Below, in pieces: positions 8,163 through 64,000 of a stretch of DNA of 64,000 nucleotides. The stretch covers positions 1 to 64,000 of IMG/VR virus record IMGVR_UViG_3300025030_000076, one strand, 5' to 3'. The stretch comes from a virus. Within the stretch, counting starts at the first letter, position 1; each line of letters starts with the position of its first letter. Position numbers and translations under genes: made by a program. Under the pieces are notes generated by a model. That model ran no database searches and was not told the DNA's origin. It saw only the letters and a program-made list of their open reading frames with translations.

Positions 8163-10247
8163 TTAGCTGGCCTTGTTGGTCAGGTAATAGAATGCTTCGC
8201 TTTGAAGCACTCCGCCACCGCGGAAGATCGACGCAAAGATGCCGATCTGCCCGGTCGCCATGTACAGGTACGGATTGCGCTGTACGACCATGCCCGGCTT
8301 CTCGACTACCGCGTAGTAGGAGAAGTTGCCGAACACAATACACTTTGCCGATGCTGTGGTATATGGTTCAAGGTCGTCGTCGATGACGGCCTTGTAGCCG
8401 AAAAAGTCGCCATCCTGCGGGGTCTGCACGTAAGCAAACGGGACCGCGGACGTTCCACCGCTGCCCTTGAGATACCACTTGGTCACATTCGCCATGAGCA
8501 TGGCGGACTCGCTTGGGACGTTGTACCCGCCGCCGAGATAGCCGATGAGCGCGGAGAGTTCCGAAGGCAGAATGATGTCGGTCGTGGCGGTCGTATTTGC
8601 AACCGTCGCGCCGGTCACGATACCCTCAGGCTGTGCCGTGCCTGTACCTGTGGTGAAGATGGTGTTCTCGGTGTTGGCAACTGCGCGCCCAAGAGCATTG
8701 GTAAACCAGGCTTCCCAGTTCGTGCCGTTGTACATCAAGAATTCTTCGTTCATCTTGGTCAATTTGGTGTACTTGTACAGGATGAGGTCTTTCTGTGATA
8801 CGGTTCCCTCATTCTCATCGTACGTGCCAGCCTCAGCCGTCAAAATAAAATCGGTCAGGCTGGTATTCTCACGCGGGACCAACAGATGATCGGAAGGGGT
8901 CGTCAGGAACGTGCAAGGGACTTGCCGCGCCCATGACATGATATCGCGCTTGGCGATGATCTGGTTGTACAAGGGATCGGGAACCAGGAACCCACCGCTT
9001 GCTCCGGTCGTGATGTTCCAGGCGGCCTTGCCTGCCTTGATGTTGTCGAAAGACGAATCAGGTCGGAGCAGCCCTTGATTTTCCTGCCCGGTCTTGAGCC
9101 AGGACTTGAATGCGCCGATGCCATCGTTGTCATCATCGGTCGGCTCAGTGGGGTGGTAGAAAGTCTGCGGCCCGTGCTCTTTCAACTCCTCAACGGCCTT
9201 TTTGTACCCGGCGTCCTCTGCGGCCTTCAGTTCTGCCGCCCTCTGCGCTTCCGCCTGGGATTTCGCTTCGCGCTCTGCAAGCGCGTCAGCGACCGCCTTA
9301 TCTACGGCGGATTTGATTTCTAACTCTTCCATGATGTTCTCCCTTTGTTTGGTAACAGGTTGATTGGTTTGTTTGTTTTGGTTTGGTTGGTTATCCTCCT
9401 CAACGGGCAACGCCGCATGAGAAGTTAGTAACGATTTAATTGGCAGTATCTGATTGGTCTTGCGGAACTCTGCCGGATGCGGGGTAAGCGACGCGTCCAG
9501 ACCTAAGCGCCAGCGCGTGACTTCCCACACGCCGTTCTTGATTGCTTTGCGGTCTACAAGATGCGATGCAGTTCCAGACGACCAGGCTAATTTCCCCGCA
9601 AGCCCCAGCTCCGCGATTGTCTTTTCGTACTCATTACGCGCTTCGATCACCACCTCGGCAAACACTCCAACGTCATCAATGGCGAGTGTCGCTTTATTGG
9701 ATAGCGGCTCTGTGTATTTCACTTCAATGTTGTTATGTTTCTTGACGCGGATCGGTAAACGGTGGTTAAACCATGTATCGGATTGTTTGGCGTCGCCGAA
9801 GTCGGTATTTTTCGTGAAGTAATCGCCTTCCAGGTCTGGATTTTTTGAATCCCCGAAGCGGATCAGATAACCCCCTAATTTGACCGCGCCGCCGTCCAAT
9901 GACGTGGCTTTGACCGCATCGCCGGGGTAGATATATTCCTCATCCAGCGATTTACCCTCCATCATAGGAATTTCACCCCCTGGCTTTTCACACTCAGCGC
10001 CGTTTTCCACCATGATGTCATGCACGGTCTGGAACGCCTCTGTTTCTTTGCGCGTGTGCCGCGCGCCGATTTTCAGGAAGTGCTTGACCGCATCTTCCAC
10101 AGACATCCCATAGAACGACTTCTTCTCCCCCCATATGCTCATGCAAGCGGCGGCGGCTTCGTCCTGTTCTTTCCCCTCTTCCAGCATGGCAGGCATACAA
10201 GCCCCCATCCACTTATCTTTATCGTCGTATTCCGATACGTTCGGCAT
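8163..10247 (-). CDS. Prohead protease-major capsid protein ORF (HK97 fold), probable internal capsid start at 9332
   Basis: DLEGDYF/NH/WSSG/DASLTPHPAE protease-like motifs; GGFLVP, GTGTAQPEGI, IVFGNFSYY capsid motifs. Confidence 0.88.
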   Translation of the reverse strand: MPNVSEYDDKDKWMGACMPAMLEEGKEQDEAAAACMSIWGEKKSFYGMSVEDAVKHFLKIGARHTRKETEAFQTVHDIMVENGAECEKPGGEIPMMEGKSLDEEYIYPGDAVKATSLDGGAVKLGGYLIRFGDSKNPDLEGDYFTKNTDFGDAKQSDTWFNHRLPIRVKKHNNIEVKYTEPLSNKATLAIDDVGVFAEVVIEARNEYEKTIAELGLAGKLAWSSGTASHLVDRKAIKNGVWEVTRWRLGLDASLTPHPAEFRKTNQILPIKSLLTSHAALPVEEDNQPNQNKQTNQPVTKQRENIMEELEIKSAVDKAVADALAEREAKSQAEAQRAAELKAAEDAGYKKAVEELKEHGPQTFYHPTEPTDDDNDGIGAFKSWLKTGQENQGLLRPDSSFDNIKAGKAAWNITTGASGGFLVPDPLYNQIIAKRDIMSWARQVPCTFLTTPSDHLLVPRENTSLTDFILTAEAGTYDENEGTVSQKDLILYKYTKLTKMNEEFLMYNGTNWEAWFTNALGRAVANTENTIFTTGTGTAQPEGIVTGATVANTTATTDIILPSELSALIGYLGGGYNVPSESAMLMANVTKWYLKGSGGTSAVPFAYVQTPQDGDFFGYKAVIDDDLEPYTTASAKCIVFGNFSYYAVVEKPGMVVQRNPYLYMATGQIGIFASIFRGGGVLQSEAFYYLTNKAS

Positions 10248-10687
10248 TTATCCCTCTGCGTATTAAACGCAAAAACCGGCTGCTCTCCTTCTCTTTCGAG
10301 AAAAGAACAACCGGCTCAAAGTCTAACGGTTAGTTATTGGCTGTGCGCTTCTGTTACACAGTAGGGCGCGTCGCCTGGGCATTCCTGCCTGCAAACATTA
10401 TAGACGATTTGTTCTATTTATGCAAGGTCTTACTCCAACACTCTTTGCATTCGCGGCGGTGCCTGTCCAGCGCCCGCCAACGGTGACGGTCGTACAAGCC
10501 CCAAGCGACGGCGCAAAGGTGGATAAGTGTCACAATGTTAGCACAATTATTCTGTTTCATGTTATAATATCTACGTCACACGCGGCGGGTTATTTTTTCG
10601 CCACAAAGAGCCGTCTCTTTCCCAAACTCGCGCGTGTGACAACAAGCGAAAAAACAGGAAGGAGGCGGCTCTTTGTGAAGGTGTCCT

Positions 10688-11137
10688 ATGGATTACAACA
10701 AATATATTGCGTCTAAAGAGTGGGACGAAAAACGTAAAGCCAGGAAGAAACTAGACGGGTATCGTTGCCGCCTGTGTGATGAGGACGGGACACACTATCA
10801 ATTGGAGGTACACCATCGTCCATCTGCTTATGCAAAAATTCCAAACGAATCAATCGAAGATGATCTAATAACGGTTTGCTCCCGTTGCCATAACCTCATT
10901 ACGGACGTAATCCGTGAAGATAGATATGGACGACTGGAACACGAACCCACAACGATAACGACCAACATTCAAATAAGACAGGAGATATATCATGGCTTGG
11001 AAAACACTAACATACAAACTGAACTCATCCGCCCCGCTGATAATGCACAACGGGCAGACGGCAGACCCAACAAACAAGTGGTCGAAGTTAATCAAACAGA
11101 TTTCATCCAAACGCGCAAAGACAGACGCGGATCATGA
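10688..11137 (+). CDS. HNH endonuclease
   Basis: YIASKEW...DGYRCRLC...LEVHH...DLITVCSRCH; C-terminal tail overlaps next gene by 146 nt. Confidence 0.88.
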   Translation: MDYNKYIASKEWDEKRKARKKLDGYRCRLCDEDGTHYQLEVHHRPSAYAKIPNESIEDDLITVCSRCHNLITDVIREDRYGRLEHEPTTITTNIQIRQEIYHGLENTNIQTELIRPADNAQRADGRPNKQVVEVNQTDFIQTRKDRRGS

Positions 11138-11573
11138 GGAAATGGCGCGCCTTGAATTTATGGCGGGCTTGTATCTTGATGAGTCTGGCCCCGTCCTGCC
11201 CGCGTACATGATCGAAGCAACAATCTTGGGAGGCGCTAAGAAATCCAAAGAGGGGCAGACTTCAAAGTCTGGTTATTTTTGTCTGGAACATGCGCCGCTT
11301 GAATATGCTGGACCGCGTACAGCTAATGAATTATGGGATGATGAGCAATTCCGTTTTAGTTCTATTGTTCGCGTACAGACTTCCCGTGTTTCACGGATGC
11401 GTCCCATCTTTCGAGAATGGTCTGCCATAGTTACTCTTAATGTGGAAGATACACTAGTCAATCCCGCACAGGTTGACAGATGGCTTAATGCCTCTGGCTC
11501 TCAGGTTGGTTTAGGTGACTGGCGTCCGCAGTATGGACGCTTTACTTCCGAACGCGTGAATGGTCACAAGTAA
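10992..11573 (+). CDS. Stand-alone Cas7/RAMP-like RNA-binding protein
   Basis: N-terminal SAPLIMHN strand, RMRPIFREW, C-terminal Gly-rich loop GSQVGLGDWRPQYGRF typical of RAMP folds; no other cas genes. Confidence 0.7.
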   Translation: MAWKTLTYKLNSSAPLIMHNGQTADPTNKWSKLIKQISSKRAKTDADHEEMARLEFMAGLYLDESGPVLPAYMIEATILGGAKKSKEGQTSKSGYFCLEHAPLEYAGPRTANELWDDEQFRFSSIVRVQTSRVSRMRPIFREWSAIVTLNVEDTLVNPAQVDRWLNASGSQVGLGDWRPQYGRFTSERVNGHK

Positions 11574-11658
11574 GGCCCGGCTGGGCGTGGCGTGGTATGG
11601 TGCGGTAGGTTCTGGTTTGGCACGGCTTGGTTAGGCGGGGTGAGGTACGGTAGGGAGC
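11574..11658 (+). ncRNA. GGY-NN pentamer array, candidate guide RNA for the upstream RAMP protein
   Basis: ggcCC ggcTG ggcGT ggcGT ggtAT ggtGC ggtAG gttCT ggtTT ggcAC ggcTT ggtTA ggcGG ggtGA ggtAC ggtAG ggaGC, starting immediately after the stop codon. Confidence 0.8.
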
Positions 11659-11665
11659 AGAGAGA

Positions 11666-12361
11666 TTACTTATCTAGCAATCTCTCTGTTTTTTCTGCAT
11701 CTACTGGCACGTAACAAGGCATTGGGTCTTTGCCATTCTCGACAACTATTTCTGACTTTGAGTTATTATCCTTGATAATCTTTTTTGCCAATTCAAGCAT
11801 CGTGATCGGCGTAATGCCTCCGATGTCGTAGCATTCGCCGCGCTCGCCATGCAGTAACACAGCCCACATTCGCCGCGCCATATCTTCGCCGCTCATATAT
11901 GTTCTAATAGTATTTCCATCCCCAAATATTCTCAGTGGCTCGCCTTTTCTTGCCGCATTTTCAAATGCTACTATCGCGTGATCTGCTGATAGCCTTTCCC
12001 CATGAAATGCAAACAACCGACAAACGACCACATCGACGCCGCTATCCAGGCACTCTTTTTCCCAATCGAGTTTATTCTGCCTGTACTCGGTATCATTCTC
12101 ATCGTGATAGACAATACCGCTCGAAGCATACAGCACGCGGATACCGAATGGCTGTGCATATTCCAGAACCTCATACGGCGAGATATTCGCCAGATGCACG
12201 ATGTAATCCCAGGTCATCCATTTCCAGTGCCGGAGTTCGTAGTCGCTTTTGCCGATGTAACTGATACGTAAATCAGGCGGGGCGGTTTGCCGCATCCAAA
12301 AGCCACAGAAGCCTGTACCGCCTACGACTAAAACTTTATCCATTATCAGTTCCATCTCCAC
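11666..12361 (-). CDS. NAD-dependent epimerase/dehydratase (extended SDR)
   Basis: VLVVGGTGFCG, YASSG, YRQNK, RLFAFHG, GDGNTIRTY. Confidence 0.88.
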   Translation of the reverse strand: MEMELIMDKVLVVGGTGFCGFWMRQTAPPDLRISYIGKSDYELRHWKWMTWDYIVHLANISPYEVLEYAQPFGIRVLYASSGIVYHDENDTEYRQNKLDWEKECLDSGVDVVVCRLFAFHGERLSADHAIVAFENAARKGEPLRIFGDGNTIRTYMSGEDMARRMWAVLLHGERGECYDIGGITPITMLELAKKIIKDNNSKSEIVVENGKDPMPCYVPVDAEKTERLLDK

Positions 12362-12594
12362 GGCTCACGTATTCGTTTTACAAATTCAATCTCAATCGTT
12401 GCACCTCTTGATATTTTCCTCCATGACCTGTTGATTTTATGCCTGAACCATTGCCACCAAAGCCAATTGAACAAACGACGCAAAAGCGATGGATGGTACG
12501 GCTTTACTTCCATGCCTTTTACGAACGATGTCAGGTCTGTCAATTCGTCAGATGATCGAATCTCAAATTTCGTGATCTTGTTTGTTTTAGCCAT
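12346..12594 (-). CDS. Hypothetical protein
   Basis: Overlaps neighbours in the operon. Confidence 0.45.
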   Translation of the reverse strand: MAKTNKITKFEIRSSDELTDLTSFVKGMEVKPYHPSLLRRLFNWLWWQWFRHKINRSWRKISRGATIEIEFVKRIREPWRWN

Positions 12595-13717
12595 TGTAAA
12601 AACTCCGAATGGTTTCCGCTTGGTACTCTCTCATTTCCTCATTGATCCCTGGAAAGACGCCGACCCAAATCGCTTTTTCATGAATGATATTGGCGCCATC
12701 TAAATTACCAATGACGCGATGCTCTATGTTCTTATACGCGGATTGTCTCAGCAGATTGCCGCCCATTGCGGGCCTATTCCCGACTCCACGCTCATCCAGA
12801 TACCGCGCCAATTTGTTACGGTGTTCTGTAACAAAAGCAAAGCCGAACCATGAAGGGTTGCTCCCCGGCGAAGCCTGGACGATCTCAATCGGTAAATCCT
12901 TCAAGTTATTATACAAATATGTCCAGTTCTCGCGCCGCTTTTCGATAAACCCTTCAAGCCTATCCAGTTGCGCCACACCTACGGCGGCTTGGAAATCGCT
13001 TGCCTTGAGATTCCACCCGATACGCGAGTACATATATTTATGATCTATTTCATAGTCAAATCGTTTCCCGCAGGTATTATCCTTTCCTGGCTCACAGAAG
13101 CAGTCCCGCCCCCAATCCCGGTAACTCTCGATAATCTTCCTCAGCCGCGGGCTATCAGTCAGTACCATGCCACCTTCGCCGGTGGTGATGTGATGCGCCG
13201 GGTAAAATGAGACGGTAGACATTATGCCGCGACGACCAACCATCTGCCCGTTGATCGTGCTCCCTACCGCGTCGCAGCAATCTTCGATGATAGGTATTCC
13301 ATAGCTCGACAAATAAGTCAGGTCTACGGGGTTTCCAAGCGCATGCGCCATAATAATGGCTTTTACATTGTCGGGAGAATATTCCCAGCCGTCCGCGCAG
13401 TTCAGCGTCTTTGGGTCACTGTCCACAAACACCGGCACTAAGCCAAGCTGAATGATGCAATTGACCGTCGTGGGGAAGTTCACCGCCGTGGTGATGACCT
13501 CCGAGCCTTTCGGAAGCTCTAGAGCAGATAATGCCAGTAAATTTGCACTCGAACCGCTATTACACAGGATCGCCTCACGCGCACCCATGAATCGAGCGAA
13601 GCCGCGCTCGAAGCGGTTCGTCCAAATGAATCCGCCGTAACTCTGCGAGTTCGCGACTTCTATCACGTTATCCGCTTCTTCCTTTCCAGTCACTTGCCCC
13701 GAAATAGGGACTTTCAT
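12587..13717 (-). CDS. rfbH: CDP-4-keto-6-deoxyglucose 3-dehydratase (DdhC/RfbH, DegT/DnrJ family)
   Basis: NSGSSANLLA, EDCCDA, SFYPAHHITTGEGG (His in place of the PLP Lys), RDWGRDCFCEPGKDNTC Fe-S cysteines. Confidence 0.9.
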   Translation of the reverse strand: MKVPISGQVTGKEEADNVIEVANSQSYGGFIWTNRFERGFARFMGAREAILCNSGSSANLLALSALELPKGSEVITTAVNFPTTVNCIIQLGLVPVFVDSDPKTLNCADGWEYSPDNVKAIIMAHALGNPVDLTYLSSYGIPIIEDCCDAVGSTINGQMVGRRGIMSTVSFYPAHHITTGEGGMVLTDSPRLRKIIESYRDWGRDCFCEPGKDNTCGKRFDYEIDHKYMYSRIGWNLKASDFQAAVGVAQLDRLEGFIEKRRENWTYLYNNLKDLPIEIVQASPGSNPSWFGFAFVTEHRNKLARYLDERGVGNRPAMGGNLLRQSAYKNIEHRVIGNLDGANIIHEKAIWVGVFPGINEEMREYQAETIRSFYNG

Positions 13718-13822
13718 ATATACCGTTACCTTTATCAAGTAACAGGTATACAACGATACACTGAGATTGATACATATTAGTTTTGTTACCAGCGACAGCG
13801 CGCTAGGCGAAAATACAACAGG

Positions 13823-14032
13823 TTACTTTTGAGGGCGCTTTATCATCACGGAATAAAACACTGCCATTTCCACGATATACAGTAAAACCGTCGCGGCAAT
13901 ATCCATTCCTGATGTAATGCCCAAAGTATAGTGCATGTAACTGCCAACAACCAGGGGCAGGAAAATCATCAAAATCAAAACTATTGTTAGTGCCATTTCA
14001 AAACCTTTCTTGTCTCCAGCGACAGCGCGCAA
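13823..14032 (-). CDS. Small membrane protein
   Basis: Two hydrophobic segments; likely start at MALTIV. Confidence 0.55.
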   Translation of the reverse strand: MRAVAGDKKGFEMALTIVLILMIFLPLVVGSYMHYTLGITSGMDIAATVLLYIVEMAVFYSVMIKRPQK

Positions 14033-14053
14033 GGCGACAATTGAATATACTTA

Positions 14054-14275
14054 TTATTTAATCTTCTTGAATGTTACTGCACTATAGGAGGCGTCTGGAA
14101 AGCGTTGCATCACATTACTCCAACATTCGATAACACCGTATCCCGGTTTACAGACAGCGTACTCCACCGTAATTGTCTCTCCAGACGTCAGCGTCATTTC
14201 GTAGGTATGTTTACTGCCTCCACAAGCAGTCAGTAATAATACCAGCACTAAAATCAGGAAGATAGTCTTTTTCAT
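14054..14275 (-). CDS. Small lipoprotein
   Basis: MKK-hydrophobic-LTAC lipobox. Confidence 0.7.
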   Translation of the reverse strand: MKKTIFLILVLVLLLTACGGSKHTYEMTLTSGETITVEYAVCKPGYGVIECWSNVMQRFPDASYSAVTFKKIK

Positions 14276-14303
14276 TTTTTCAAACCTTTCCGAAGTGTGG
14301 CGG

Positions 14304-15440
14304 TTACCCGTCCCACTCCATAATCTCTCTCAATTCATTCTCAGGTAGATATGGATACATATTCTCCATGTCATCTGTCCTGATCGGATTACCACTTGCC
14401 ATCACGCGCGGCAACTGCTGCCATTCGGGGTCAACAAACACTTCCACGACCATCGGCGCAATCCCGAAGCATCGGGCGAAGTTCGGCAAATCCCGCCCAT
14501 GCAAGGGCATGTAACAGAGGCGATATGCCTCCGCAATTGCTTCTATGCTGGGGAGCGTCAGCCCTGTGGCAGGGTTGGCACCCGTCACGCGCCCGAAGCG
14601 CGCAAGCTGTCCCACGCGGATGGAGTTATAGCCGCCGTTATTCATCACGAAAAAGATAATCGGCAGGCGCAGCCTGCGTATCGTCTCCAGTTCCTGCGCG
14701 TTCATCGCAAAGCCGCCGTCGCCCGTCACGCAGATAGTGCGCCGCCCGGATGCCAGCGCAGAGCCGAGAGCCATCGGAATATCAGCGCCCATTGCGCCGA
14801 TTGTGCAGACGTTGGAGATACGCTGCCCCGCTCGGACTTTATACGCCTGGAAGAACACAGTCGGGGCGTTGCCCGATGAGCCGATAGCGAACACGTCATC
14901 CGACTGGCTGTGGTCATGCAGGAGTCGCGTGAACGTGAACGGGTCTACGAAATGATCGCCGCCTCCGTCTCCCGTCTCCTGTCTCCCGTCCAGTTCAGGC
15001 CGGAAGCGGGTGTAGAGCGCCTTGCACCAGTTGAGCCAGTCGCGATGAGGCGGTTCAAAGGCCGGAAGAAAATCAATGTCATCTCTACAATCAAGGGTCT
15101 GCGTAACGTGGTAACGCTTCGGGAACTTCTGTGCCTCTGCGGGGTCTATATCATAAATATATATCTCCGCATTCGGCGCGAAGCGGTCATAATCATAGGC
15201 GACTTGTTCACCGTCCAGCCGTGCGCCGAAGCAATAGAGATGGGTGGCTTTTTGCTGAATTATGCAAGATGCGCGCTGGCCGAAGATTCCAGGTCTGCCG
15301 CAATAGACGGGGGAATCTTCTGACAGTAGATCAGCCGCCATCCAAGTTGTAATGCACGGCACTTGTAAAGAAGTAAGGTGATTTATAAGCGCCGGGTTAT
15401 TGCGGATGCCGTTGCCGATGAGGATGACTGGCTTATACAT
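14304..15440 (-). CDS. ThDP-dependent enzyme, central + PP domains (acetolactate synthase/YerE-like)
   Basis: GRPGIFGQR, GAMGADIP, GDGG...NN ThDP motif. Confidence 0.88.
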   Translation of the reverse strand: MYKPVILIGNGIRNNPALINHLTSLQVPCITTWMAADLLSEDSPVYCGRPGIFGQRASCIIQQKATHLYCFGARLDGEQVAYDYDRFAPNAEIYIYDIDPAEAQKFPKRYHVTQTLDCRDDIDFLPAFEPPHRDWLNWCKALYTRFRPELDGRQETGDGGGDHFVDPFTFTRLLHDHSQSDDVFAIGSSGNAPTVFFQAYKVRAGQRISNVCTIGAMGADIPMALGSALASGRRTICVTGDGGFAMNAQELETIRRLRLPIIFFVMNNGGYNSIRVGQLARFGRVTGANPATGLTLPSIEAIAEAYRLCYMPLHGRDLPNFARCFGIAPMVVEVFVDPEWQQLPRVMASGNPIRTDDMENMYPYLPENELREIMEWDG

Positions 15441-15942
15441 CGGCGGCCTGTATGTCTTGCGGGATGTCGAGCCACACGGGGCCGGGACGCCCTTCTTTTG
15501 CTATCTCAATCATCCCGTCCAGTACTTCTAATATTCCCGCACTCACGCTCGGCTGATGCGCTATCTTGACTATCGGCCTCACCATTTCTATTGTCGGCCC
15601 CTCCTGTGTCCCGCGTGATCGCATATCATCAAGCGCTAGCCACTTCCGCATGACTTGGCCGCTTATCACCAACAGGGCGATACTGTCTACCCATGCAGCA
15701 AGTACAGGCGTGAGAATATTAGTGACCCCAGGACCCGACGTGACCAACGCCACGCCGAATCCGTGATACTGTGCATACCCGACCGCCGCGTAGCCGCAGC
15801 CCTGCTCATGTAGGCAGCACACGGCGCGCAATCCCGACGCGCCAAGCGCATCCACCAGCGGCCCGGAGCCGCCGCCAGGAAGGTAGAATACAACTTCAGT
15901 TTCTTGTTTCAGCCTTTCCCAAATTATTTGTGATACGTTCAT
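15433..15942 (-). CDS. ThDP-dependent enzyme, N-terminal PYR domain
   Basis: HEQ, VTSGPGVTN, ISGQV, GRPGPVWLDIP. Confidence 0.9.
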   Translation of the reverse strand: MNVSQIIWERLKQETEVVFYLPGGGSGPLVDALGASGLRAVCCLHEQGCGYAAVGYAQYHGFGVALVTSGPGVTNILTPVLAAWVDSIALLVISGQVMRKWLALDDMRSRGTQEGPTIEMVRPIVKIAHQPSVSAGILEVLDGMIEIAKEGRPGPVWLDIPQDIQAADV

Positions 15943-16967
15943 GTTTCAATGATCGGGTTTTCTATACCCGCCTTCCTGATATTTTCGATCAGCCGTTGCC
16001 GCTGTCCCTGCGCCATTATCAGGATCGGCGCGGCGTTGGTAGGTCGTTCCTGTACCGGCTTGCCGTTGTAGGTCTGCCCGCGGTACGCGGGATCGTTATC
16101 AATATAGTCAAGTATATTGAGTTCCACCTGTGCTAGCAGATGCCATGTAATATCTCCCATGCCCCAGACGTTGAGCGGCAAGCCCGCAAGCGTTTTGAGC
16201 CTATCCACGCGGGCGGATATGTTATCCGTGATGTGTTTCGCTGACTCCCGCGCCACGTCCAGCCGCCTGAATTGCAATTGATACGCGGGCGCGTTCTCAA
16301 GTTCGTACTTCCGCACGCCTGCCTGCGTAGGCAGGTCAACCAATTCGAAGCCGTGATGGTATCCCAAATTGAGATAATCCCGCAACGTGAAATGATTTAG
16401 GTGCTTGGTATTGAAGTCCAATATCGGCATCTTCCACTTTTGAAGCAGGCCCGTCGCGTCTGGTCCGTCCATGATGAGCAAGCCATCAGGCGCGAGCGCA
16501 TCGTCTATCCGTTCCATCGTCTTAGGCAAATCGTAGACATGCTCGATGACGTGGGAGGCATAGATAAGGTCACATTGCTGGGGCAGGGGATCGCCTGCAC
16601 CCACGCAGACGGCGTTCGTATATCCCCTGTCCTGCAACATGCCAACGATGATACTTTTGCCATCATCGCCCGCTCCGCCGAAGTCCACGATGACGGCCTC
16701 CCGGTTGCGTTCCAGTTCCGCTATCCGTACCGCGTCCATTTTCAGGCGCTCGATATTGGAGGGGTTGTTGACGCCGTAGCCGTAGTATTTGGTGTAGTAT
16801 TCGTTGAGCATCGCTTGATCAAAATTACCATCTCCGTAAAACATCGAACAGGCGTCACAGGTGTACCAGATAATCTCAGACGGCAGAGGCCAAGAGTCGG
16901 GGATGCGGTAGGGCATACGAAATACTTCGGTGCGGGAGAGATGTTCACAGACGGGGCAAGGCCTCAT
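15939..16967 (-). CDS. Class I SAM methyltransferase (sugar C/O-methyltransferase-like)
   Basis: N-terminal CPVC/CDAC, VDFGG, SHVIEH, C-terminal VWGMG Rossmann-like domain. Confidence 0.75.
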   Translation of the reverse strand: MRPCPVCEHLSRTEVFRMPYRIPDSWPLPSEIIWYTCDACSMFYGDGNFDQAMLNEYYTKYYGYGVNNPSNIERLKMDAVRIAELERNREAVIVDFGGAGDDGKSIIVGMLQDRGYTNAVCVGAGDPLPQQCDLIYASHVIEHVYDLPKTMERIDDALAPDGLLIMDGPDATGLLQKWKMPILDFNTKHLNHFTLRDYLNLGYHHGFELVDLPTQAGVRKYELENAPAYQLQFRRLDVARESAKHITDNISARVDRLKTLAGLPLNVWGMGDITWHLLAQVELNILDYIDNDPAYRGQTYNGKPVQERPTNAAPILIMAQGQRQRLIENIRKAGIENPIIET

Positions 16968-17980
16968 ACAACACGCAACCTTTCTGCAAATTCTTCGCGG
17001 TATTCGTCAATATTGTCAACGGCTGGCAAAGCTAAAACATAATCACACGTACCACATGCGCGGTTCTCGCTTCGTTTACCCTCAAGGTGCATCAGGCGAA
17101 AATCCCGTAAACGTTTCCCGTTCCAAATGTCAATAAGGGATTCTGTGTTTACGTTTCCAAGCTGGTGATAATGGGCAAAGTCATCATTACACACGGATAT
17201 ATCGCCATTGCTGTTTACCGTGAGCATGTACATCGTCAACGGGCAGGCAATCTTGTGCGTTCGCGGCGAGCCATCGAAGCTGTTATCCGTACCCAGCCGC
17301 CAGTCTTTCAAATCAGACGTAGACCAGCCGTGTAAACCTTCTATTGCGATGAAGTCGCAGCGATCACTAAAGTCGTCTATGAATTTCTGCTTGTCGGCGT
17401 CGCTAAATCCAACATCAGCTATCTTCGTGCTAATCTGTACGCCGGTATCCCGGCTCCGCTGGTACAGATCAAGCACGTTGGCACGATACTCCTCATAATC
17501 GATCCGCACGCGGGCGATGTCGTAGAAGCCTTGCGCGTGGACGTGTTGGACTGATACGCCAATCATGTCCAGGCCGCAGGTAACGAGGCGGGCGTTGTAG
17601 GAGGGGGAGAGTTTTGATCCATTAGTTTTCAACCAGATGCGTTCAACTGTATCAGCGTCGCGAAGGTATCGCACCATCTCACAGAAACGGGGATGAAGCA
17701 AACTCTCACCATCTTTGTAAACATTGCACTGCCGGATGCGATTAGGGAACGCCCGCAGATCATCCACGACTTTGACCCATAAACCCCAATCCATCAGCGT
17801 GTTCTTTCTGCCTATCTTGCGGAGTAGGTCAGTGTCACCCGTAGGACAATATCGGCAGCGATATTGGCATAAATTTGTCGGCTCCAAAAAGAGCGTCCAG
17901 GGTGTTGATAATGGCACAACGTCTATAAGACGGTCAGTTCTTTTCCCACGCAAATCCTTAGCCTGGATTATCTTAGCCAT
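16964..17980 (-). CDS. Radical SAM/SPASM protein
   Basis: CQYRCRYC motif; C-terminal CP..VNSNGDISVC..CGTC; start revised to MAKIIQ. Confidence 0.9.
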   Translation of the reverse strand: MAKIIQAKDLRGKRTDRLIDVVPLSTPWTLFLEPTNLCQYRCRYCPTGDTDLLRKIGRKNTLMDWGLWVKVVDDLRAFPNRIRQCNVYKDGESLLHPRFCEMVRYLRDADTVERIWLKTNGSKLSPSYNARLVTCGLDMIGVSVQHVHAQGFYDIARVRIDYEEYRANVLDLYQRSRDTGVQISTKIADVGFSDADKQKFIDDFSDRCDFIAIEGLHGWSTSDLKDWRLGTDNSFDGSPRTHKIACPLTMYMLTVNSNGDISVCNDDFAHYHQLGNVNTESLIDIWNGKRLRDFRLMHLEGKRSENRACGTCDYVLALPAVDNIDEYREEFAERLRVV

Positions 17981-18221
17981 CACTCCCGCTTTCTTCATAG
18001 GTGGCAATGTTGCCATTGATGTTATAACGAGCCTGTAGAACATCACCCCTCTTCAATATTGGCCCCCAATCATCCCACCCAATAATGGGGAGTACGTCGC
18101 TCTCGTCTATCAATAAATTTATGTCTTGTGCGAAAGGCACTATCACATAGGCAACGCCTTCTGAAACATCCACCTTTGCGCCGTCAGCGGGGCCGCCAAT
18201 AAGTGAAACCGTTTTAGCCAT
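17973..18221 (-). CDS. Hypothetical protein
   Basis: LIGGPADG motif, overlaps neighbours. Confidence 0.55.
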   Translation of the reverse strand: MAKTVSLIGGPADGAKVDVSEGVAYVIVPFAQDINLLIDESDVLPIIGWDDWGPILKRGDVLQARYNINGNIATYEESGSDG

Positions 18222-18903
18222 TCTTCGCCAGCCATCCCCCATCAATCACGATGGTTTGACCGTACACAAACTCACTTTGAATTAAGTACATCAGCGCCCC
18301 AGCGATCTCCTCCGGCCTTCCGAATCTGCCCGCGGGCGTTATGCTTTCCAGCAGTTCCCGCCTCTGCAAATCAATGTACTCCGCCGTCATCTGCGTATCC
18401 ATGAGACCGGGCGCGATTGCATTAACTCTTATCAGCGGTGCAAGCTCTATTGCCATCGCCCGCGTGAGGCCGAGCAGACCATGTTTCGCGGCGACATAGC
18501 CGGATATGTTGCGCGCTCCCTGGAAGGCGGACGTGGACAGGATATTGATGATGTGTCCGCCGCCGTGGGTAAGCATGTGCCGGGCGGCCTGCTGGGATAG
18601 GTCAAATGGGGCGGTGAGAATCAGATCGAGTTGATATTGCCACTCAGACAGCCAGTAAGCCGTCACAGGTGCATGATGTTGATAGCCCGCGTTATTGACG
18701 AGAATATCCAGCCCGCCTAGTTCTCTCTCGACCTTATCAACGATGTGTTCCCGATCTTGTTCATTCGATAAGTCCGCTTTGATGAACATGTCACAATCCG
18801 CCCTTGTCCTTGCCACAACCGCGACGGTATGCCCCGCGTCCTTCAGCGCACAGACACACGCCGCGCCGATGCCGCGTGAGCCGCCGGTGACAAGGGCAAT
18901 CAC
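18214..18903 (-). CDS. Classical SDR oxidoreductase
   Basis: TGGSRGIG, NNAG, YVAAK, VNAIAPG, IDGG. Confidence 0.92.
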   Translation of the reverse strand: MIALVTGGSRGIGAACVCALKDAGHTVAVVARTRADCDMFIKADLSNEQDREHIVDKVERELGGLDILVNNAGYQHHAPVTAYWLSEWQYQLDLILTAPFDLSQQAARHMLTHGGGHIINILSTSAFQGARNISGYVAAKHGLLGLTRAMAIELAPLIRVNAIAPGLMDTQMTAEYIDLQRRELLESITPAGRFGRPEEIAGALMYLIQSEFVYGQTIVIDGGWLAKNG

Positions 18904-28330: not shown

Positions 28331-28993
28331 GTTACCGTGTGTCCGGTGTCAGTCCTGGTCATGATGTAATTATAGGGAGGCACGTCCTCATCAGCGCAGG
28401 TGGTTGCGGGCTTCCAGAGGTCGTACTGCCTACGCATCATTAGCCAGGGCAGGACGTAGGCGGAGAGAAGGAGGCCGAGCAGGAAGGGGAGGATGCGTTT
28501 CATTTATATTTCATGCTTTCGACAAGTATAGTTATAACAAGCATTCCGAAGAGCCACAAACGGCAGCAAATCATTCGCATAACTGAACATCATTACAGCA
28601 CCGCCTCCGCATGACGAGCAGACGAAATCGCAAGGGTCACGCCACACGATAATCGTTTCCTCACCACAGCAATCACATTGATGCCATTCGCCACGCCGCA
28701 TTCAGCCTCACTCACTCGCGCCCATGTCCTGCTCACCATACAACGACAAGCGCCTGTCGGTTTCGTCGCCTGGATATGACTTGACTGTTACACGAAATCG
28801 CCTCCCGCCTACGTCATGAACGTGGTCATATGGCAGCGGGTCCAGATGCTGAGCAACCATCCGGGCTAGAAACTGAGCAGTCTCTTTGACAATGGACGTT
28901 CGGACGGTATCGGCTTCGCGGTCAGTCATTCAGCCTCTAAAATTAGAACAGATGTACATGACAAATGTCATACTTTTTTTAAGGTTGTGTCTA

Positions 28994-52978: not shown

Positions 52979-54857
52979 CGGCGTTGCTGCCCACATCGTC
53001 GTATTGCAGGGTACTCGCGCCGGGAGATAAATCCAGCCATTCGGCGCGGTCGGTGGATAGCGTCACATTGACCCGCGAGCCGTCTGAGAGATACGCATCC
53101 TTAACTTCGCAGTCAATTGTCACCGTCTCATTCAGGAAGCAAGGCACGGCGCACTTAATATATTCCGTGCTTGTATTGTTGGTGATCGTAGCATCGAAGT
53201 AATACGCCGCCGCCTCAGCCCCTACCGCAATGGTTGGCAGGTTGGAACTCGAAAAGGTGACGGTTACCGTGTCGAATTGAGCCAGTGCCATCTCGCTGAT
53301 GGCAGATGACAGCAGGCCATCGATTACAAAGCGGATCGCGGAGGGGTAGGGAGATGCAAGGTTGGCAGTCGTGGGGCCAAAACTCTGCCAGGAATAAGTA
53401 ACGGTCGGTTCGGCCTGGTTGTCAGCCGTGAACCATACGGCATTTGTCTGGAGATATTGAAGCCCTACAATGGCAGGCCACGAGCCACTCATATACTTAT
53501 CACCCGAAAACAAAACAGTCGTGATCGTGGCGGGGTGGGAGAATATCCAATCCAGCGTACCTGTCTCATTCTGTACCTGGAAGTCCGCACTCCCTATCAA
53601 TGCCAGCCCCAGGGATGTGGACGGGTCAGCAAATGTATTATCCGGCGCGGTATAGACGTATGACAGGCCTGTTCGGGATGATAATACCTCCCCTTTCCAC
53701 ATGCCCGTGCGTGCGCCGGTTGCCTGAAAATAGTTAGTAAGCACCCATGCCCCGTTTGTGGACGCGAGTGAGCACATCGGCTTGTTATCATTGTCCACAT
53801 CCGGGGCGGTCAATGTGCTATCCCCGTAGAGTATCCAGATGTCATGCTCGATCCAGCGTACAGTTTTCGGCGCGGTGTGCGCCGCGATGGTCGTATCTTT
53901 TTTGGTACGTGTTACACCTGTCAATTGATAGGTTACCAGATTGGCGCCTGTAAATGTAAATGCCTCCGAATCGATCAGCACGACCTTGTTGACCGCCGCT
54001 GCCATCGCGTGTAGAAATTCCAGGTTAGCTTTTGTTTTTGATAGCGTGATGGTCGTGATCGCCCCGCTGCCCGCTATGCTGGTATTCGTCGTCCCTTCAC
54101 GGCGCGGCCCCAGGTTTAGATTGACCCAACATTTCGTCGTTGCCGTATCCATGTCCTGAAGCCATCTATCTACAAAGACCCCATCCACAAGCACCAGGAA
54201 ATCATCCCCGTCTGCCTGCATCTTGGCAGTGGTGAGTGTCGCCGTATCCAGCCCGCCATTAGTAATGTCCAGCGGCGCAATATAGGATATATCCATATTG
54301 TTATAAATCGGTATCCAGCGCCGATAACTCAGCCCGCCCGTTTTCGCGCTGGTGGGGGTCAGGGTCAGCTTCGGCCCGATCTTGCGGTTACCTGCGTTGG
54401 TGATCGCCTGCGTCTGCCCGGATGCCGTTACACTCCAACTGGTATCGGTCGCCGTGACAAGTTTCCAGTATGGATACTCGATCTGGAATAAGACCATGAA
54501 GGAATTTTTATTCGTTCCCTCATTTCGGACGTCGCGTACAAAGCCGGTCACGTACCACTGCGTTCCGCTTGCTCCATTCTCCGCAATCAGATTATGACGC
54601 TGCCCGTCCTCAAAATTGAAATACTGCTTGAGTAGTTCCCGATTGGTGTCAATATCCTGTCCCGCTGCAATCCTCACCCGGATTATAAGAGACTGCGGAT
54701 CTGCTACGATCCCCGATACATAGGGATAGTTATCTGCGCGCGGAACGGTAACGACGTTGCCGTGTATATTGACCTTTGAGCCGGGTGGGAAATCGGAATA
54801 GAACGGCGAGCCGTTGTTGATGCTAATCCCGTTCCACGTCAATAGAAGCAGATTCAT
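52941..54857 (-). CDS. Distal tail (evolved Dit-like) protein
   Basis: Directly after tape measure; PYW, ITNAGN..P, WLDLSPG motifs with a large insertion; homologue begins at window position 51. Confidence 0.75.
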   Translation of the reverse strand: MNLLLLTWNGISINNGSPFYSDFPPGSKVNIHGNVVTVPRADNYPYVSGIVADPQSLIIRVRIAAGQDIDTNRELLKQYFNFEDGQRHNLIAENGASGTQWYVTGFVRDVRNEGTNKNSFMVLFQIEYPYWKLVTATDTSWSVTASGQTQAITNAGNRKIGPKLTLTPTSAKTGGLSYRRWIPIYNNMDISYIAPLDITNGGLDTATLTTAKMQADGDDFLVLVDGVFVDRWLQDMDTATTKCWVNLNLGPRREGTTNTSIAGSGAITTITLSKTKANLEFLHAMAAAVNKVVLIDSEAFTFTGANLVTYQLTGVTRTKKDTTIAAHTAPKTVRWIEHDIWILYGDSTLTAPDVDNDNKPMCSLASTNGAWVLTNYFQATGARTGMWKGEVLSSRTGLSYVYTAPDNTFADPSTSLGLALIGSADFQVQNETGTLDWIFSHPATITTVLFSGDKYMSGSWPAIVGLQYLQTNAVWFTADNQAEPTVTYSWQSFGPTTANLASPYPSAIRFVIDGLLSSAISEMALAQFDTVTVTFSSSNLPTIAVGAEAAAYYFDATITNNTSTEYIKCAVPCFLNETVTIDCEVKDAYLSDGSRVNVTLSTDRAEWLDLSPGASTLQYDDVGSNAVTVHVIHRDRTL

Positions 54858-57043: not shown

Positions 57044-57160
57044 GTGATATAATCCTTGTAAATCAATTCGTCTGGGCTAGCAGGCGTTTCCATGTTAAAA
57101 TCCATATACCTTTCGTGTCGCGCTAGCCCGCGATGCGAGAGGTATTTTGTTTGGAGTACC

Positions 57161-57835
57161 ATGTCACTAATCGAAATTCACTGCGAACAATGTGGAAAGC
57201 ATTTTCAAGGGCGCAGCGATAGGATAATTCGCTTTTGTTCGCGCGCCTGCTGACGTAATTCCCAAATAGAAACAAGAGTGTGCGTTGTATGTAAAAAGCC
57301 TTTTCGGGTAAGGCCATCATATGAAACATCCACTTGTTCCAGAGAGTGCAAGAAGAAAAATTATTCATCCATTCACCTTACAGATAGGCTTAGAGAAATT
57401 ATTAGCCGCGTAGGAAAAGCCAACAAGGGACGCACCCGCCCTCACAAGCCACTTTTGGAAAAGATTTGCGAACAATGCAAAACGATTTACTATGTTCCAG
57501 GAAAACAAAAGGCAAGCCGCTATTGTTCTACTAAATGCTGGTACAACCACATTCGACAAGACCCTGTTAAGCACCCGAATTGGCGCGGAGGAGAATACGA
57601 TCATAACTATGGTCGAAACTGGTTTCAGCAAAAACGCTCCGCACGCAAGCGCGACAAGTACACATGCCAGAACTGTGGCATTACTGAAAGAGAATATGGT
57701 CGTCACTTGGATGTCCATCACAAAGTTCCTTTTAGAAATTTCGGTATCGAAAGATATAAAGAGGCCAACGTTCTCAAAAACCTAATTTCTCTTTGCAGAG
57801 GTTGCCATATGATTGCCGAGCGTGGCGTTTATTGA
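57161..57835 (+). pseudogene. Zn-finger HNH endonuclease with in-frame TGA at 57251-57253 (residual ORF 57278-57835)
   Basis: GGAG-ATG at 57161 is in frame with the HNH ORF; MSLIEIHCEQCGK..FCSRAC*RN; LDVHH..NLISLCRGCH. Confidence 0.7.
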
Positions 57836-57983
57836 TTCCTCATTGCATCTATCTCGCGCTGTTGCCTTGCATTCAATTCATTGATATATAAAGTGAGCCT
57901 TAATTGCCATACATACCGCCGCCAGCGCGACGGTTTTTCGCCTGTGATTTTCCAGGGTAATTGATGCAAAGCGAACGCCAACA

Positions 57984-58364
57984 CTACAACGTCGAACCAT
58001 CCGGGGAGGTCTGCGGGGTCAGGGAATCGACTTCTGAAGTAGAGTTCAATTGACCCCCTTTCGCGTTTGGGATGGTAGATTCCACAAGTGCTTCGCTAAA
58101 TTTGTTGATAGCATCCGCCGCTTCATCCCGGCTCAATTCATCAAATATTGCATACGCTTCGTCTTGCGGAAGGTACTGATTATTTTCGTCAGCCATGAAG
58201 CGACAGGATAGAATCTGGATTTGTTCCAGAAACTCGTCGTTAATATCGTTGCCTTGTGCTTTCAAGCGCCTGAATTTTTGCACCTTTTTTATGTCTTTCC
58301 ACTTCAGGCGCTTCCCTACTGTTTTCGCGTCGAACAAAAACTTAATGTGTATATCCTCAGACAT
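57984..58364 (-). CDS. Tail assembly chaperone (copy B), -1 frameshift extension to ~57829
   Basis: Near-identical to 2213-2593; CCCAAAC at 58065-58071. Confidence 0.8.
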   Translation of the reverse strand: MSEDIHIKFLFDAKTVGKRLKWKDIKKVQKFRRLKAQGNDINDEFLEQIQILSCRFMADENNQYLPQDEAYAIFDELSRDEAADAINKFSEALVESTIPNAKGGQLNSTSEVDSLTPQTSPDGSTL

Positions 58365-58393
58365 TACAAACTACTTTCTCGCGCATTAGCGCG

Positions 58394-59395: not shown

Positions 59396-59601
59396 TATTC
59401 ACCTTCCTTAGCCGTTTTGATTTTCTTCGGCTGTTCTATTTTTGGTTTCTCATACAGGCCGCTTGCAAGCATCCCGGCCTCATCTATTCCAAGTTCCTTC
59501 CAGAGTTCCGCACGCTCGGCGAAATCTTCGTCCATCAGGTCGCGGGCGGGTATGTGTATGAGCGCGTCACCCCGGCCAATGTAATGCAATTTAATTGCCA
59601 T
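59395..59601 (-). CDS. Small conserved virion-module protein (copy B)
   Basis: Homologue of 4014-4223. Confidence 0.65.
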   Translation of the reverse strand: MAIKLHYIGRGDALIHIPARDLMDEDFAERAELWKELGIDEAGMLASGLYEKPKIEQPKKIKTAKEGE

Positions 59602-59611
59602 GTTTGTCTCC

Positions 59612-62306: not shown

Positions 62307-62364
62307 GATAAAACGCTTTCCGGGGGAGGCAATTGCTCGCCTCCCCCATTACTTATCAGTAGTG

Positions 62365-62802: not shown

Positions 62803-62813
62803 GTCATCACCTC

Positions 62814-63977: not shown

Positions 63978-64000
63978 GATGTTCTCCCTTTGTTTGGTAA

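What the first reader, a model, noticed from the sequence alone, without database searches (positions are those of the whole stretch)
10992..11658. Stand-alone Cas7/RAMP-like gene followed by a GGY-NN pentamer array: candidate non-CRISPR RNA-guided system
Seen: directly after the stop codon of a 193-aa ORF come 16 in-phase 5-nt units (11574-11653). Fifteen begin GGY and one GTT, each followed by a variable dinucleotide: CC TG GT GT AT GC AG CT TT AC TT TA GG GA AC AG. A microsatellite would not keep three bases fixed and two free. Established: the protein's N-terminal PL..HN strand and C-terminal G.GDWRP..GRF Gly-loop resemble RAMP/Cas7 proteins, which polymerise along guide RNA with a fixed period. 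Inference: one subunit binds each GGY and displays NN for pairing, so the guide is non-contiguous. From memory this matches the recently reported phage VIPR-type architecture; that needs verifying. No CRISPR array or other cas genes are present.
Basis: partly seen in the sequence, partly recalled or inferred. Interest (0 to 1): 0.95.

Follow-up and report, generated by a model that had tools for sequence, protein, structure and literature searches.

The report
VIPR RNA-guided cassette in phage
This is a genuine member of the VIPR family described in 2026: a small Cas7-like protein, a GGY-NN repeat guide RNA and, here, an HNH nuclease, carried on a groundwater phage, with a guide that matches the gene next to the cassette's own insertion site in sister phages that lack the cassette.

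Summary
A 193-aa ORF (10992-11573) is followed at once by 16 in-phase GGYNN units (11574-11653); 200 shuffles gave at most 6.

The protein matches SUSP1 Vipr (PDB 36pp) at E=8e-27. It keeps the GGY-contact residues and folds like Cas7 proteins. Relatives in 30 viral and 43 prokaryotic loci mostly carry same-strand GGY/NN arrays with different NN.

The gene is not stand-alone. An HNH gene (10688-11137) overlaps its start and is found upstream in most relatives.

New here: read by the published 1-nt-skip rule, guide units 3-14 match, in frame, a motif of the epimerase-like gene in cassette-free sister phages (24/24 in two). The phage's own allele, 300 nt from the cassette, matches 17/24. Identity between the two phage copies on the contig switches from about 55% to 90% at that site. 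A second cassette (L001) likewise targets the gene beside its insertion point. This suggests linked-immunity competitor exclusion or RNA-guided homing; neither is shown.

The parts
10559..10568 (+). Candidate extended -10 promoter element (TGnTATAAT) upstream of the HNH-vipr operon. Weak evidence.
   Evidence: Read by eye. The consensus scan did not list a + strand promoter here, so this is only a candidate.
10602..10677 (+). Inverted repeat (21-nt arms) in the leader of the HNH gene. Function unknown.
   Evidence: I1, 90% complementary
10688..11137 (+). HNH endonuclease gene, the conserved accessory gene of this VIPR clade. Its last 146 nt overlap vipr in another frame.
   Evidence: Pfam HNH E=3e-5 and PHROG HNH families. 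The CxxC...HH...N...CxxH motif is visible in the translation. A homologue lies just upstream of vipr in 28 of 30 viral loci and 31 of 43 genome loci. It is absent from cassette-free sister phages.
10992..11573 (+). vipr gene: a 193-aa RAMP/Cas7-like protein that is expected to polymerise on the repeat RNA.
   Evidence: SUSP1 Vipr 36pp_D E=8e-27 over the full length; profile E=1.9e-45; phrog_4652 E=2e-49; AF2 pLDDT 92 and Cas7-family fold hits. The AGGAG ribosome-binding site before the ATG is visible.
11574..11653 (+). vrRNA repeat tract: 16 GGY/NN units (unit 8 is GTT).
   Evidence: equivalent arrays in relatives
11584..11643 (+). Guide core, units 3-14 (NN = GT GT AT GC AG CT TT AC TT TA GG GA): the part that matches natural targets.
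   Evidence: 24/24 in L031/L040 and L045; 23/24 in contig copy 2, L032, L046 and L047. Units 1, 2, 15 and 16 contribute 0 to 2 of their 8 positions at every target site.
11654..11694 (+). 3' tail: GGAG, a 13-bp hairpin (11658-11670 / 11676-11688) and a T6 run, giving a structured tail and likely intrinsic terminator. It overlaps the last codons of the convergent epimerase-like gene.
   Evidence: The 'GGAG + hairpin' form is also seen after single arrays in L084, L090, L093, L063 and L069.
11666..12361 (-). Neighbouring NAD-dependent epimerase/SDR-like gene. It is chimeric: its N-terminal part resembles the sister phages and its C-terminal part is foreign.
   Evidence: Pfam Epimerase E=4e-13. 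The N-part is 93-94% identical to copy 2 and L046, and the C-part 43-55% to all sisters. DNA identity switches at 12012-12041.
11990..12037 (-). The phage's own, mismatched allele of the vrRNA target site (VDVVVCRLFAFHGERL).
   Evidence: 18/32 overall and 17/24 in the core, against 23-24/24 in the sisters
11517..11546 (+). Site inside vipr (G-loop coding part) that is matched 20/20 by a vrRNA of another VIPR locus (L015).

Best explanation
The locus is a three-part VIPR cassette on a phage from groundwater or soil: an HNH nuclease gene, the vipr gene and one vrRNA. It is inserted backwards in the late operon between the epimerase-like gene and the capsid gene. By analogy with SUSP1 VIPR (published, not shown here), Vipr protomers assemble one per GGYNN unit on the vrRNA. 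They bury each GGY and present the NN pairs, which read double-stranded DNA as NNxNNx, so that x falls on the codon wobble position. The guide core (units 3-14) specifies the motif VVIARLFTFYGE of the epimerase-like gene as it occurs in sister phages without the cassette. The carrier's own allele is mismatched in 7 of the 24 core positions. I infer that, during co-infection or in a polylysogen, the filament binds the sister genome just upstream of its capsid gene and the linked HNH nuclease cuts there, or at least the filament blocks late transcription. This would disadvantage the cassette-free sister. Because the target lies about 300 nt from the insertion point, the resistant allele and the cassette stay genetically linked. 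Repair of a cut from the carrier genome could also copy the cassette across (homing).
For: Family membership: full-length homology to SUSP1 Vipr and a Cas7-like fold. The residues that the cryo-EM preprint names for GGY and DNA contacts are conserved in the alignment: H17, R138, D177, W178, R179, M72, K33, R39 and K82 of SUSP1 correspond to H19, R137, D176, W177, R178, M73, K35, R41 and K83 here. Most are invariant or nearly so in 26 relatives. Array: 15 of 16 in-phase GGY units against at most 6 in shuffles. Nearly all of 30 viral and most of 43 genome loci have same-strand arrays next to vipr with different NN. Code: with 1-nt skip, 10-unit sub-guides gave 10 near-perfect hits among held loci, and 0-nt and 2-nt skip gave none. 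Target: core 24/24 in L031/L040 and L045; 23/24 in contig copy 2, L032, L046 and L047; 20-22/24 in L037-L039. All sites are in frame in the homologous gene with differing wobble bases. About 0.007 exact pattern matches were expected by chance in IMG/VR (my estimate). Only 3 of 1000 permuted guides reach 23/32 on the contig. None of these sisters encodes HNH or Vipr. The own allele scores 17/24. HNH linkage. Adjacency was replicated: L001 vrRNA2 hits L048-L050 at 27/32 (units 1-13 perfect) in the Neck1/tail-completion gene that directly flanks the cassette's position, and L001's own allele scores 21/32. A weaker third case is L058 vrRNA2 against L097, 23/30, about 400 nt from the homology break. 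Breakpoint at the target: plus a loose end at 12026 in DNA run X11.
Against: There are no expression, RNP or cleavage data for this locus. Counting all 16 units, the best natural match is 25/32 (78%), just under the 80% threshold the VIPR authors used. Units 1, 2, 15 and 16 almost never match, so the '12-unit core' is my inference. The experimentally shown VIPR activity is transcriptional repression by a type without a nuclease, and no VIPR-associated HNH has been assayed in the papers I could read. Of the seven guides I searched for outside targets, two gave clear targets, one gave a weak one and four gave none. The host is unknown. The two-copy contig could be a chimeric assembly, although independent sister contigs give the same result.
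Confidence: 0.85

Rival explanations
1. Silencing only. The Vipr-vrRNA filament blocks late transcription of the sister phage at the epimerase-like gene, just upstream of the capsid gene, as shown for SUSP1-type VIPR. The HNH protein plays no part in target attack; it could be a packaging or independent homing nuclease that merely travels with vipr.
For: Repression is the only demonstrated VIPR activity (papers read). The target lies upstream of the capsid gene in the same transcription direction. The guide has the sense polarity of the target gene, so it pairs with DNA and not mRNA.
Against: HNH lies directly upstream of vipr, often overlapping it, in 28 of 30 viral and 31 of 43 genome loci in unrelated contexts. 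It is absent from six sister genomes that package without it. The VIPR authors themselves predict target destruction for nuclease-bearing types.
Confidence: 0.25
2. RNA-guided homing. The cut at the sister allele is repaired from the carrier genome, copying the cassette together with the resistant stretch between cut site and cassette, as free-standing Seg and Mob endonucleases do in T4-like phages (my own knowledge).
For: The target lies within 100-400 nt of the insertion point in two independent backbones. Between cassette and target site the carrier's epimerase-like gene is foreign: 43-55% amino-acid identity to every sister, while the sisters share 58-84%. Beyond the site it is 93-94% identical to copy 2 and L046. 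DNA identity switches within 12012-12041. The cassette occurs in many unrelated contexts.
Against: There is only one breakpoint example. This region is mosaic anyway: an 82-aa ORF at 12346-12594 is also specific to copy 1. No cleavage or conversion has been shown. Tight linkage between weapon and immunity would explain the adjacency without any copying.
Confidence: 0.35
3. Host defence. The cassette works for a lysogen against incoming phages, as the VIPR authors proposed for their nuclease-bearing types III and V in defence islands.
For: Nuclease-type accessory gene. Many relatives sit in bacterial chromosomes such as Bradyrhizobium, Methylobacterium and Azospirillum.
Against: Here it sits inside the head module of a phage with no flanking host genes, and its matches are to sister phages at the syntenic gene.
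Confidence: 0.15
4. The GGY-NN run is a chance or structural G-rich repeat (for example a terminator-associated or G-quadruplex element) with no guide function.
For: There is no RNA evidence for this locus. 'No RNA holder listed' is not evidence either way.
Against: Shuffles give at most 6 units. The array co-occurs with vipr in tens of loci. Its decoded core hits the same gene in nine sister sequences, in frame.
Confidence: 0.02

Closest known systems
VIPR systems (Vipr protein + vrRNA), type II of phage SUSP1 and the P. fulva prophage (bioRxiv 10.64898/2026.04.26.720920; cryo-EM 10.64898/2026.04.26.720927; PDB 36pp)
   Same: Homologous protein of about 190-200 aa with conserved GGY-contact and DNA-contact residues. 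A GGY/NN pentamer guide of 9-16 units followed by a structured 3' tail. Phage-borne. Natural targets follow the 1-nt-skip rule with the skip on the wobble base. Targets are competing phage elements, and some guides hit other vipr genes.
   Different: About 34% identity in tblastn to the E. coli and Salmonella phage homologues, the Felixounavirus group. One vrRNA directly abutting the stop codon, rather than several in intergenic arrays. A plain hairpin-terminator tail; no pseudoknot was looked for. The accessory gene is an upstream, overlapping HNH nuclease rather than a downstream DNA-binding protein. The target is the gene beside the cassette's own insertion site in sister phages, not a satellite or a lysogeny regulator.
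Nuclease-bearing VIPR types (types III-V in the same preprint; an HNH Vap is shown in its fig. S21)
   Same: Vipr plus a predicted nuclease accessory gene. Some such systems encode a single vrRNA. Their guides match viral sequences.
   Different: The authors describe types III and V as enriched in cellular defence islands and read them as host immunity. This cassette sits in a phage head module. I could not place it in their type scheme because their tree and data S4 were not available.
Cas7-family backbone subunits of class 1 CRISPR effectors (Csm3, Cmr4, type VII Cas7)
   Same: RRM core, glycine-rich loop and thumb hairpin, and polymerisation along a guide with periodic base flipping. These are the top fold matches.
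   Different: 9-14% sequence identity, no CRISPR array or other cas genes, a period of 5 nt on the RNA against 3 nt on the DNA rather than 6/6, and the guide is itself the repeat.
Free-standing homing endonucleases of T4-like phages (Seg and Mob families, 'intronless homing') and omega-RNA-guided TnpB/IscB transposon homing
   Same: A nuclease gene in a small optional cassette. The target lies in the cassette-free relative close to the insertion point. The carrier's allele is resistant through sequence divergence. There is a sequence breakpoint at the target site. As with TnpB, specificity would come from an RNA encoded by the element.
   Different: No cleavage or conversion has been shown here. 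Recognition would be by a Vipr-vrRNA filament and not by the nuclease protein itself or a contiguous guide.

Membership tests
VIPR system | Vipr protein: sequence homologue of the described Vipr family | tested here: met
   36pp_D 'SUSP1 Vipr protein' E=8e-27, residues 4-188 of 193; profile E=1.9e-45
VIPR system | Minimal RAMP fold (RRM core, G-loop, thumb) | tested here: met
   AF2 pLDDT 92.3, pTM 0.85. The top Foldseek PDB hits listed are Cas7-type and related RAMP chains of class 1 CRISPR effectors (51 hits at E<=0.001), best E=4.7e-5, TM 0.45-0.52. The G-loop GLGDWRP is present and R137 lies in the beta-hairpin 121-152.
VIPR system | Residues that hold G1, G2 and Y3 of each repeat and contact DNA (SUSP1 H17, R138, D177, W178, R179, M72, E71; K33, R39, K82, K88) | tested here: met
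   9 of 11 are conserved in the alignment (H19, R137, D176, W177, R178, M73, K35, R41, K83). E71 is replaced by Y72 and K88 by Q89. Conservation across 26 relatives is.
VIPR system | vrRNA: 9-16 tandem YNNGG/GGYNN units with conserved GGY and hypervariable NN, on the vipr strand | tested here: met
   16 units, 15 with GGY. Relatives have arrays at the same position with unrelated NN.
VIPR system | Structured 3' tail after the repeats | tested here: inconclusive
   A 13-bp hairpin plus U-run follows the array, and similar 'GGAG + hairpin' tails follow single arrays in relatives. No covariation test was run and a pseudoknot like that of SUSP1 was not examined.
VIPR system | Natural targets obeying the 1-nt-skip rule (authors' criterion: at least 80% of NN positions) | tested here: inconclusive
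   The core of 12 units matches 24/24 in two sisters, but over all 16 units the best is 25/32 = 78%. The relative L001 passes at 27/32 = 84%. Skip-0 and skip-2 controls gave no hits.
VIPR system | vrRNA is transcribed and co-purifies with Vipr | not testable with these tools
   No RNA run holding the locus was listed. The contigs laid cannot show transcripts.
VIPR system | No CRISPR array or cas operon at the locus | tested here: met
   No array-like tandem repeats and no Rfam family in the window. The neighbours are capsid and sugar-pathway genes.
VIPR nuclease-bearing type (probably the authors' type III) | Conserved nuclease accessory gene (HNH) | tested here: met
VIPR nuclease-bearing type (probably the authors' type III) | Placement in the authors' Vipr phylogeny | not testable with these tools
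   Supplementary tree and data are not held.
VIPR nuclease-bearing type (probably the authors' type III) | Cellular defence-island context (an enrichment the authors report for types III and V, not a strict criterion) | tested here: not met
   The cassette sits in the head module of a phage contig. All 30 close relatives come from viral contigs.
Homing-endonuclease-like mobile cassette | Optional cassette that is present or absent among otherwise syntenic relatives | tested here: met
   Absent from contig copy 2, L040, L032 and L037-L039. L001 compared with L048-L050.
Homing-endonuclease-like mobile cassette | Recognition site in the cassette-free allele close to the insertion point, with the carrier allele diverged | tested here: met
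   About 300 nt away here (own allele 17/24 against 23-24/24). Within about 250 nt in L001 (own allele 21/32 against 27/32).
Homing-endonuclease-like mobile cassette | Co-conversion tract ending at the cut site | tested here: inconclusive
   One example. L001 and its sisters are too diverged to test.
Homing-endonuclease-like mobile cassette | Cleavage of the naive site and copying of the cassette | not testable with these tools
   Needs experiments.

The most novel reading that the evidence does not exclude
HNH-linked VIPR cassettes are RNA-programmed homing or marker-exclusion elements of phages. Each carries a guide against the cassette-free allele of the gene beside its own insertion point. 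A cut there is repaired from the carrier, dragging the cassette and the resistant flank into the sister genome. This would be a Cas7-like, pre-CRISPR counterpart of TnpB-type RNA-guided selfish mobility, and it would explain why the guides sit next to their targets.
Probability: 0.35. Interest if true: 0.85.

Novelty: new member of a known kind. Interest (0 to 1): 0.6.

Why it matters
VIPR was described only months ago, and its natural biology has been worked out for one type (SUSP1 against its satellite). This locus adds a clean natural example of the nuclease-linked form on a phage. The target can be read off, the self allele can be compared with the non-self allele base by base, and the escape changes can be classified. 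Those changes are four amino-acid replacements plus the two kinds of synonymous change that a wobble-skipping code cannot ignore (Arg AGR/CGN and Leu CTN/TTR). If targeting of the neighbouring gene is general, nuclease-type VIPRs act as selfish, linked weapon-and-immunity cassettes or as homing elements. That bears on how RNA-guided nucleases arose on mobile elements before CRISPR, and it gives a simple rule for predicting targets of uncharacterised VIPR loci.

Tried and rejected
- Tandem Repeats Finder does not see the array.
- The promoter/terminator scan gave nothing useful on the + strand and missed the AT-rich hairpin.
- Rfam gave no family for the region or the window.
- PADLOC found nothing for Vipr and only generic HNH (ZorE) for the partner.
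- The full 16-unit pattern had no exact match in IMG/VR. The core pattern had none in the genome collection.
- The search for related loci with the carrier's own epimerase protein found nothing.
- Guides of L004 (arrays 1 and 3) had no exact central matches in IMG/VR.
- The shared guide of Bradyrhizobium L084/L093 had no match with up to 2 mismatches in 301 genomes of the genus, and none with up to 3 in its own genomes.
- A cross-scan of 65 guides from genome loci against all held loci gave no perfect 9-unit hit.
- A test for elevated partial matches of each guide to its own flanks had no statistical power; even the window's own case is not flagged.
- Expression: no RNA holder was listed. The laid runs are contigs and say nothing on transcription.
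- The cultured phages with Vipr homologues (Trine, MakoManhole, Medea1) lack the upstream HNH and could not serve as tests.
- The second-best hit on the contig (21/32 at 28726-28773) is not significant: 137 of 1000 permuted guides do as well.
Full report
**What is there.** The window holds a 193-aa ORF at 10992-11573 on the + strand. Its stop codon is followed at once by 16 in-phase pentamers (11574-11653). No other run in the window exceeds 4 units, and 200 dinucleotide-preserving shuffles gave at most 6. After the last unit come GGAG, a 13-bp hairpin (11658-11670 / 11676-11688) and six T. An HNH endonuclease ORF (10688-11137) overlaps the first 146 nt of the 193-aa ORF in another frame. The three parts lie on the + strand between two minus-strand late genes: a protease-capsid fusion gene (8163-10247) and an NAD-epimerase/SDR-like gene (11666-12361). 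The latter heads a sugar-modification cluster.

**What it is.** The protein has no Pfam family. It matches phrog_4652 (E=2e-49) and, over its whole length, the solved 'SUSP1 Vipr protein' (PDB 36pp_D, E=8e-27; profile of 26 relatives, E=1.9e-45). An AlphaFold2 model (pLDDT 92.3) finds Cas7-type and related RAMP subunits of type III and type VII CRISPR effectors at the top of the PDB fold search (E about 5e-5, TM 0.45-0.52).

These papers define VIPR as follows. A Vipr protein of about 20 kDa works with vrRNAs of 9-16 GGY/NN units and a structured 3' tail. One protomer binds per unit. NN pairs with double-stranded DNA, skipping every third target base, which usually falls on the codon wobble position. 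There are seven types with six kinds of accessory (vap) gene, and some of those are nucleases.

In the alignment, the residues the cryo-EM paper names for holding G1, G2 and Y3 and for contacting DNA are conserved here in 9 of 11 cases. H19, R137, D176, W177, R178, M73, K35, R41 and K83 are kept. E71 becomes Tyr and K88 becomes Gln. Most of these residues are invariant or nearly so in 26 relatives.

**Relatives.** A search of IMG/VR gave 30 loci with 41-73% identical proteins. Every locus with enough flanking DNA (29 of 30) has same-strand GGY/NN arrays, in 27 of them starting downstream of vipr, often right after its stop codon. The NN are unrelated and there are often several vrRNAs. The genome collection gave 43 further loci, from Bradyrhizobium, Methylobacterium, Azospirillum, Microvirga, cyanobacterial and many uncultured genomes, most of them with arrays. 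The large protein database lists 645 homologues.

A homologue of the HNH gene lies directly upstream of vipr in 28 of 30 viral loci and 31 of 43 genome loci. In the closest relatives it shows the same overlap. The capsid, epimerase and aminotransferase neighbours are not shared. HNH, vipr and vrRNA therefore form a mobile unit, and HNH is its accessory gene. The preprint shows an HNH Vap and says types III-V carry nucleases or helicases. I could not place this locus in their tree because the supplements are not held.

**What the guide points at.** The window's assembly is one 80,305-bp contig. Positions 1-26,300 are collinear with 54,808-80,305 at 70-96% identity, so it holds two related copies of a phage unit of about 54.8 kb. 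Copy 2 lacks the cassette. Between its capsid and epimerase genes it has 911 bp with an 89-aa ORF, where copy 1 has 1,744 bp.

Scanning the contig with the guide read as NNx gives one outstanding hit, 23/32, at contig 65791-65838 on the minus strand. The hit is in frame inside copy 2's epimerase-like gene. Only 3 of 1000 unit-order permutations of the guide do as well, and skips of 0 or 2 bases give nothing comparable. All but one of the mismatches lie in units 1, 2, 15 and 16. Units 3-14 match 23/24.

An exact search with that core (unit 7 left free) found two IMG/VR contigs and three metagenome contigs. I estimate about 0.007 chance matches in IMG/VR. Every hit is the same site of the homologous gene, with different wobble bases. 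Sister contigs fetched through the capsid protein add three more sites at 20-22/24. Two sisters (L031/L040, with an 89% identical capsid, and L045) match 24/24. None of the sisters encodes HNH or Vipr.

The carrier's own allele (11990-12037) scores 17/24. It differs by four amino-acid changes (I to V, A to C, T to A, Y to H) and by the two synonymous first-base changes that a wobble-skipping code cannot ignore (Arg AGG/CGG and Leu CTG/TTG). The guide has the sense of the target gene, so it can pair with the template DNA strand but not with the mRNA. Over all 16 units the best natural match is 25/32 (78%), just below the authors' 80% cut-off. That only 12 units are functional is my inference, supported by the conserved 'GGY-AN-GGA' junction at the 3' end of arrays in relatives.

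**Position of the target.** The target's counterpart lies about 300 nt from the cassette. DNA identity between the two copies is about 55% from the cassette up to 12011 and about 90% from 12042 onward. At the protein level the carrier's N-terminal part is 93-94% identical to copy 2 and L046. Its C-terminal part, from the target motif to the cassette, is only 43-55% identical to any sister, whereas the sisters share 58-84% there. In an independent soil DNA run, a contig that matches the window from 12026 upward continues below that point with the copy-2-type allele.

A second cassette behaves the same way. vrRNA2 of L001 (Vipr 73% identical, different phage backbone) matches L048, L049 and L050 at 27/32, with units 1-13 perfect and in frame. 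The site is in a tail-completion/Neck1 gene. These contigs are cassette-free sisters in which the two genes that flank the L001 cassette are adjacent. L001's own allele scores 21/32 and starts 78 nt inside the gene next to the cassette.

A third, weaker case is Methylobacterium L058 vrRNA2 against L097: 23/30, with units 4-13 matching 19/20, in frame. The site lies about 400 nt from the point where homology to the cassette-bearing locus ends. Four other guides gave no target. For two unbiased collection-wide searches to land within about 400 nt of the insertion point in genomes of 40 kb or more has a chance probability of roughly 4e-4 (my estimate).

**Another layer.** The first vrRNA of L015 matches 20/20 the G-loop-coding part of vipr in this window (11517-11546) and in L001 and L004-L006. 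L015's own vipr scores 17/20. The preprint also reports guides against other VIPR systems.

**Mechanism.** Shown elsewhere and inferred here: filament assembly on the vrRNA and NNx reading of DNA. Shown here by sequence: the cassette structure, the conservation of the contact residues, and the target, its reading frame, its self/non-self difference and its position. Inferred only: that the HNH protein cuts the bound site, that the effect is exclusion of cassette-free sisters, and that repair copies the cassette (homing). None of the VIPR texts I could read mentions homing or targets beside the insertion site. Their supplementary data were not available.

**Verdict.** However, the kind of system is already described, so this is a new member of a known kind. 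The added value is the readable natural target and the evidence that this nuclease-linked form aims at the neighbour of its own empty site. I reached both independently and tested them against sister genomes.

Noticed in passing
window 1-26300 versus contig 54808-80305 (window part 54808-64000): The 80.3-kb contig carries about 1.46 units of a 54.8-kb phage as two diverged copies (70-96% identity) with different inserts. It is either a tandem or co-integrated pair or a chimeric assembly of two co-occurring strains.
   Followed up: partly
window 11517-11546 and L015:4588-4727: [quoted passage not shown] L015's own vipr scores 17/20. This is VIPR-against-VIPR targeting.
   Followed up: partly
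L004:4663-4730, L005:4663-4733, L006 and L007 downstream of vipr: The spacers between successive vrRNAs contain GGTTCGAGTCC-like tRNA T-arm motifs inside a conserved element of about 60 nt. This may be a processing signal (tRNA-like or ribozyme). It is not present in the window's single-vrRNA locus.
   Followed up: no
L007:4623-4917 and L008:2777-3071: Uninterrupted in-phase runs of 59 GGYNN units, far longer than one vrRNA. These may be the 'staggered' overlapping arrays mentioned in the preprint.
   Followed up: no
window 12346-12594 (-): An 82-aa ORF with no family lies between the epimerase-like and DegT-like genes. It is present in copy 1 only and is a second small indel in this mosaic region.
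   Followed up: no
window 11666-18903 (-): The head module contains a sugar-modification cluster: epimerase/SDR, DegT-type aminotransferase, a split ThDP enzyme, a methyltransferase, a radical SAM/SPASM protein and a short-chain dehydrogenase.
   Followed up: partly
window 10602-10677: A 21-nt-arm inverted repeat lies in the leader of the HNH gene and includes a GGAGG box in its 3' arm. It may control translation or stabilise the transcript.
   Followed up: no
window 12026 (DNA run X11): In an independent soil metagenome, contigs that match the window above 12026 continue below it with the copy-2-type target allele. Carrier and target alleles therefore co-occur in that sample, and they diverge inside the target site.
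   Followed up: partly
L058:7117-8103 (-): In Methylobacterium fujisawaense the DNA between the VIPR arrays and the remnant of the targeted gene holds a 328-aa ORF of unknown function, possibly cargo that travels with the cassette.
   Followed up: no
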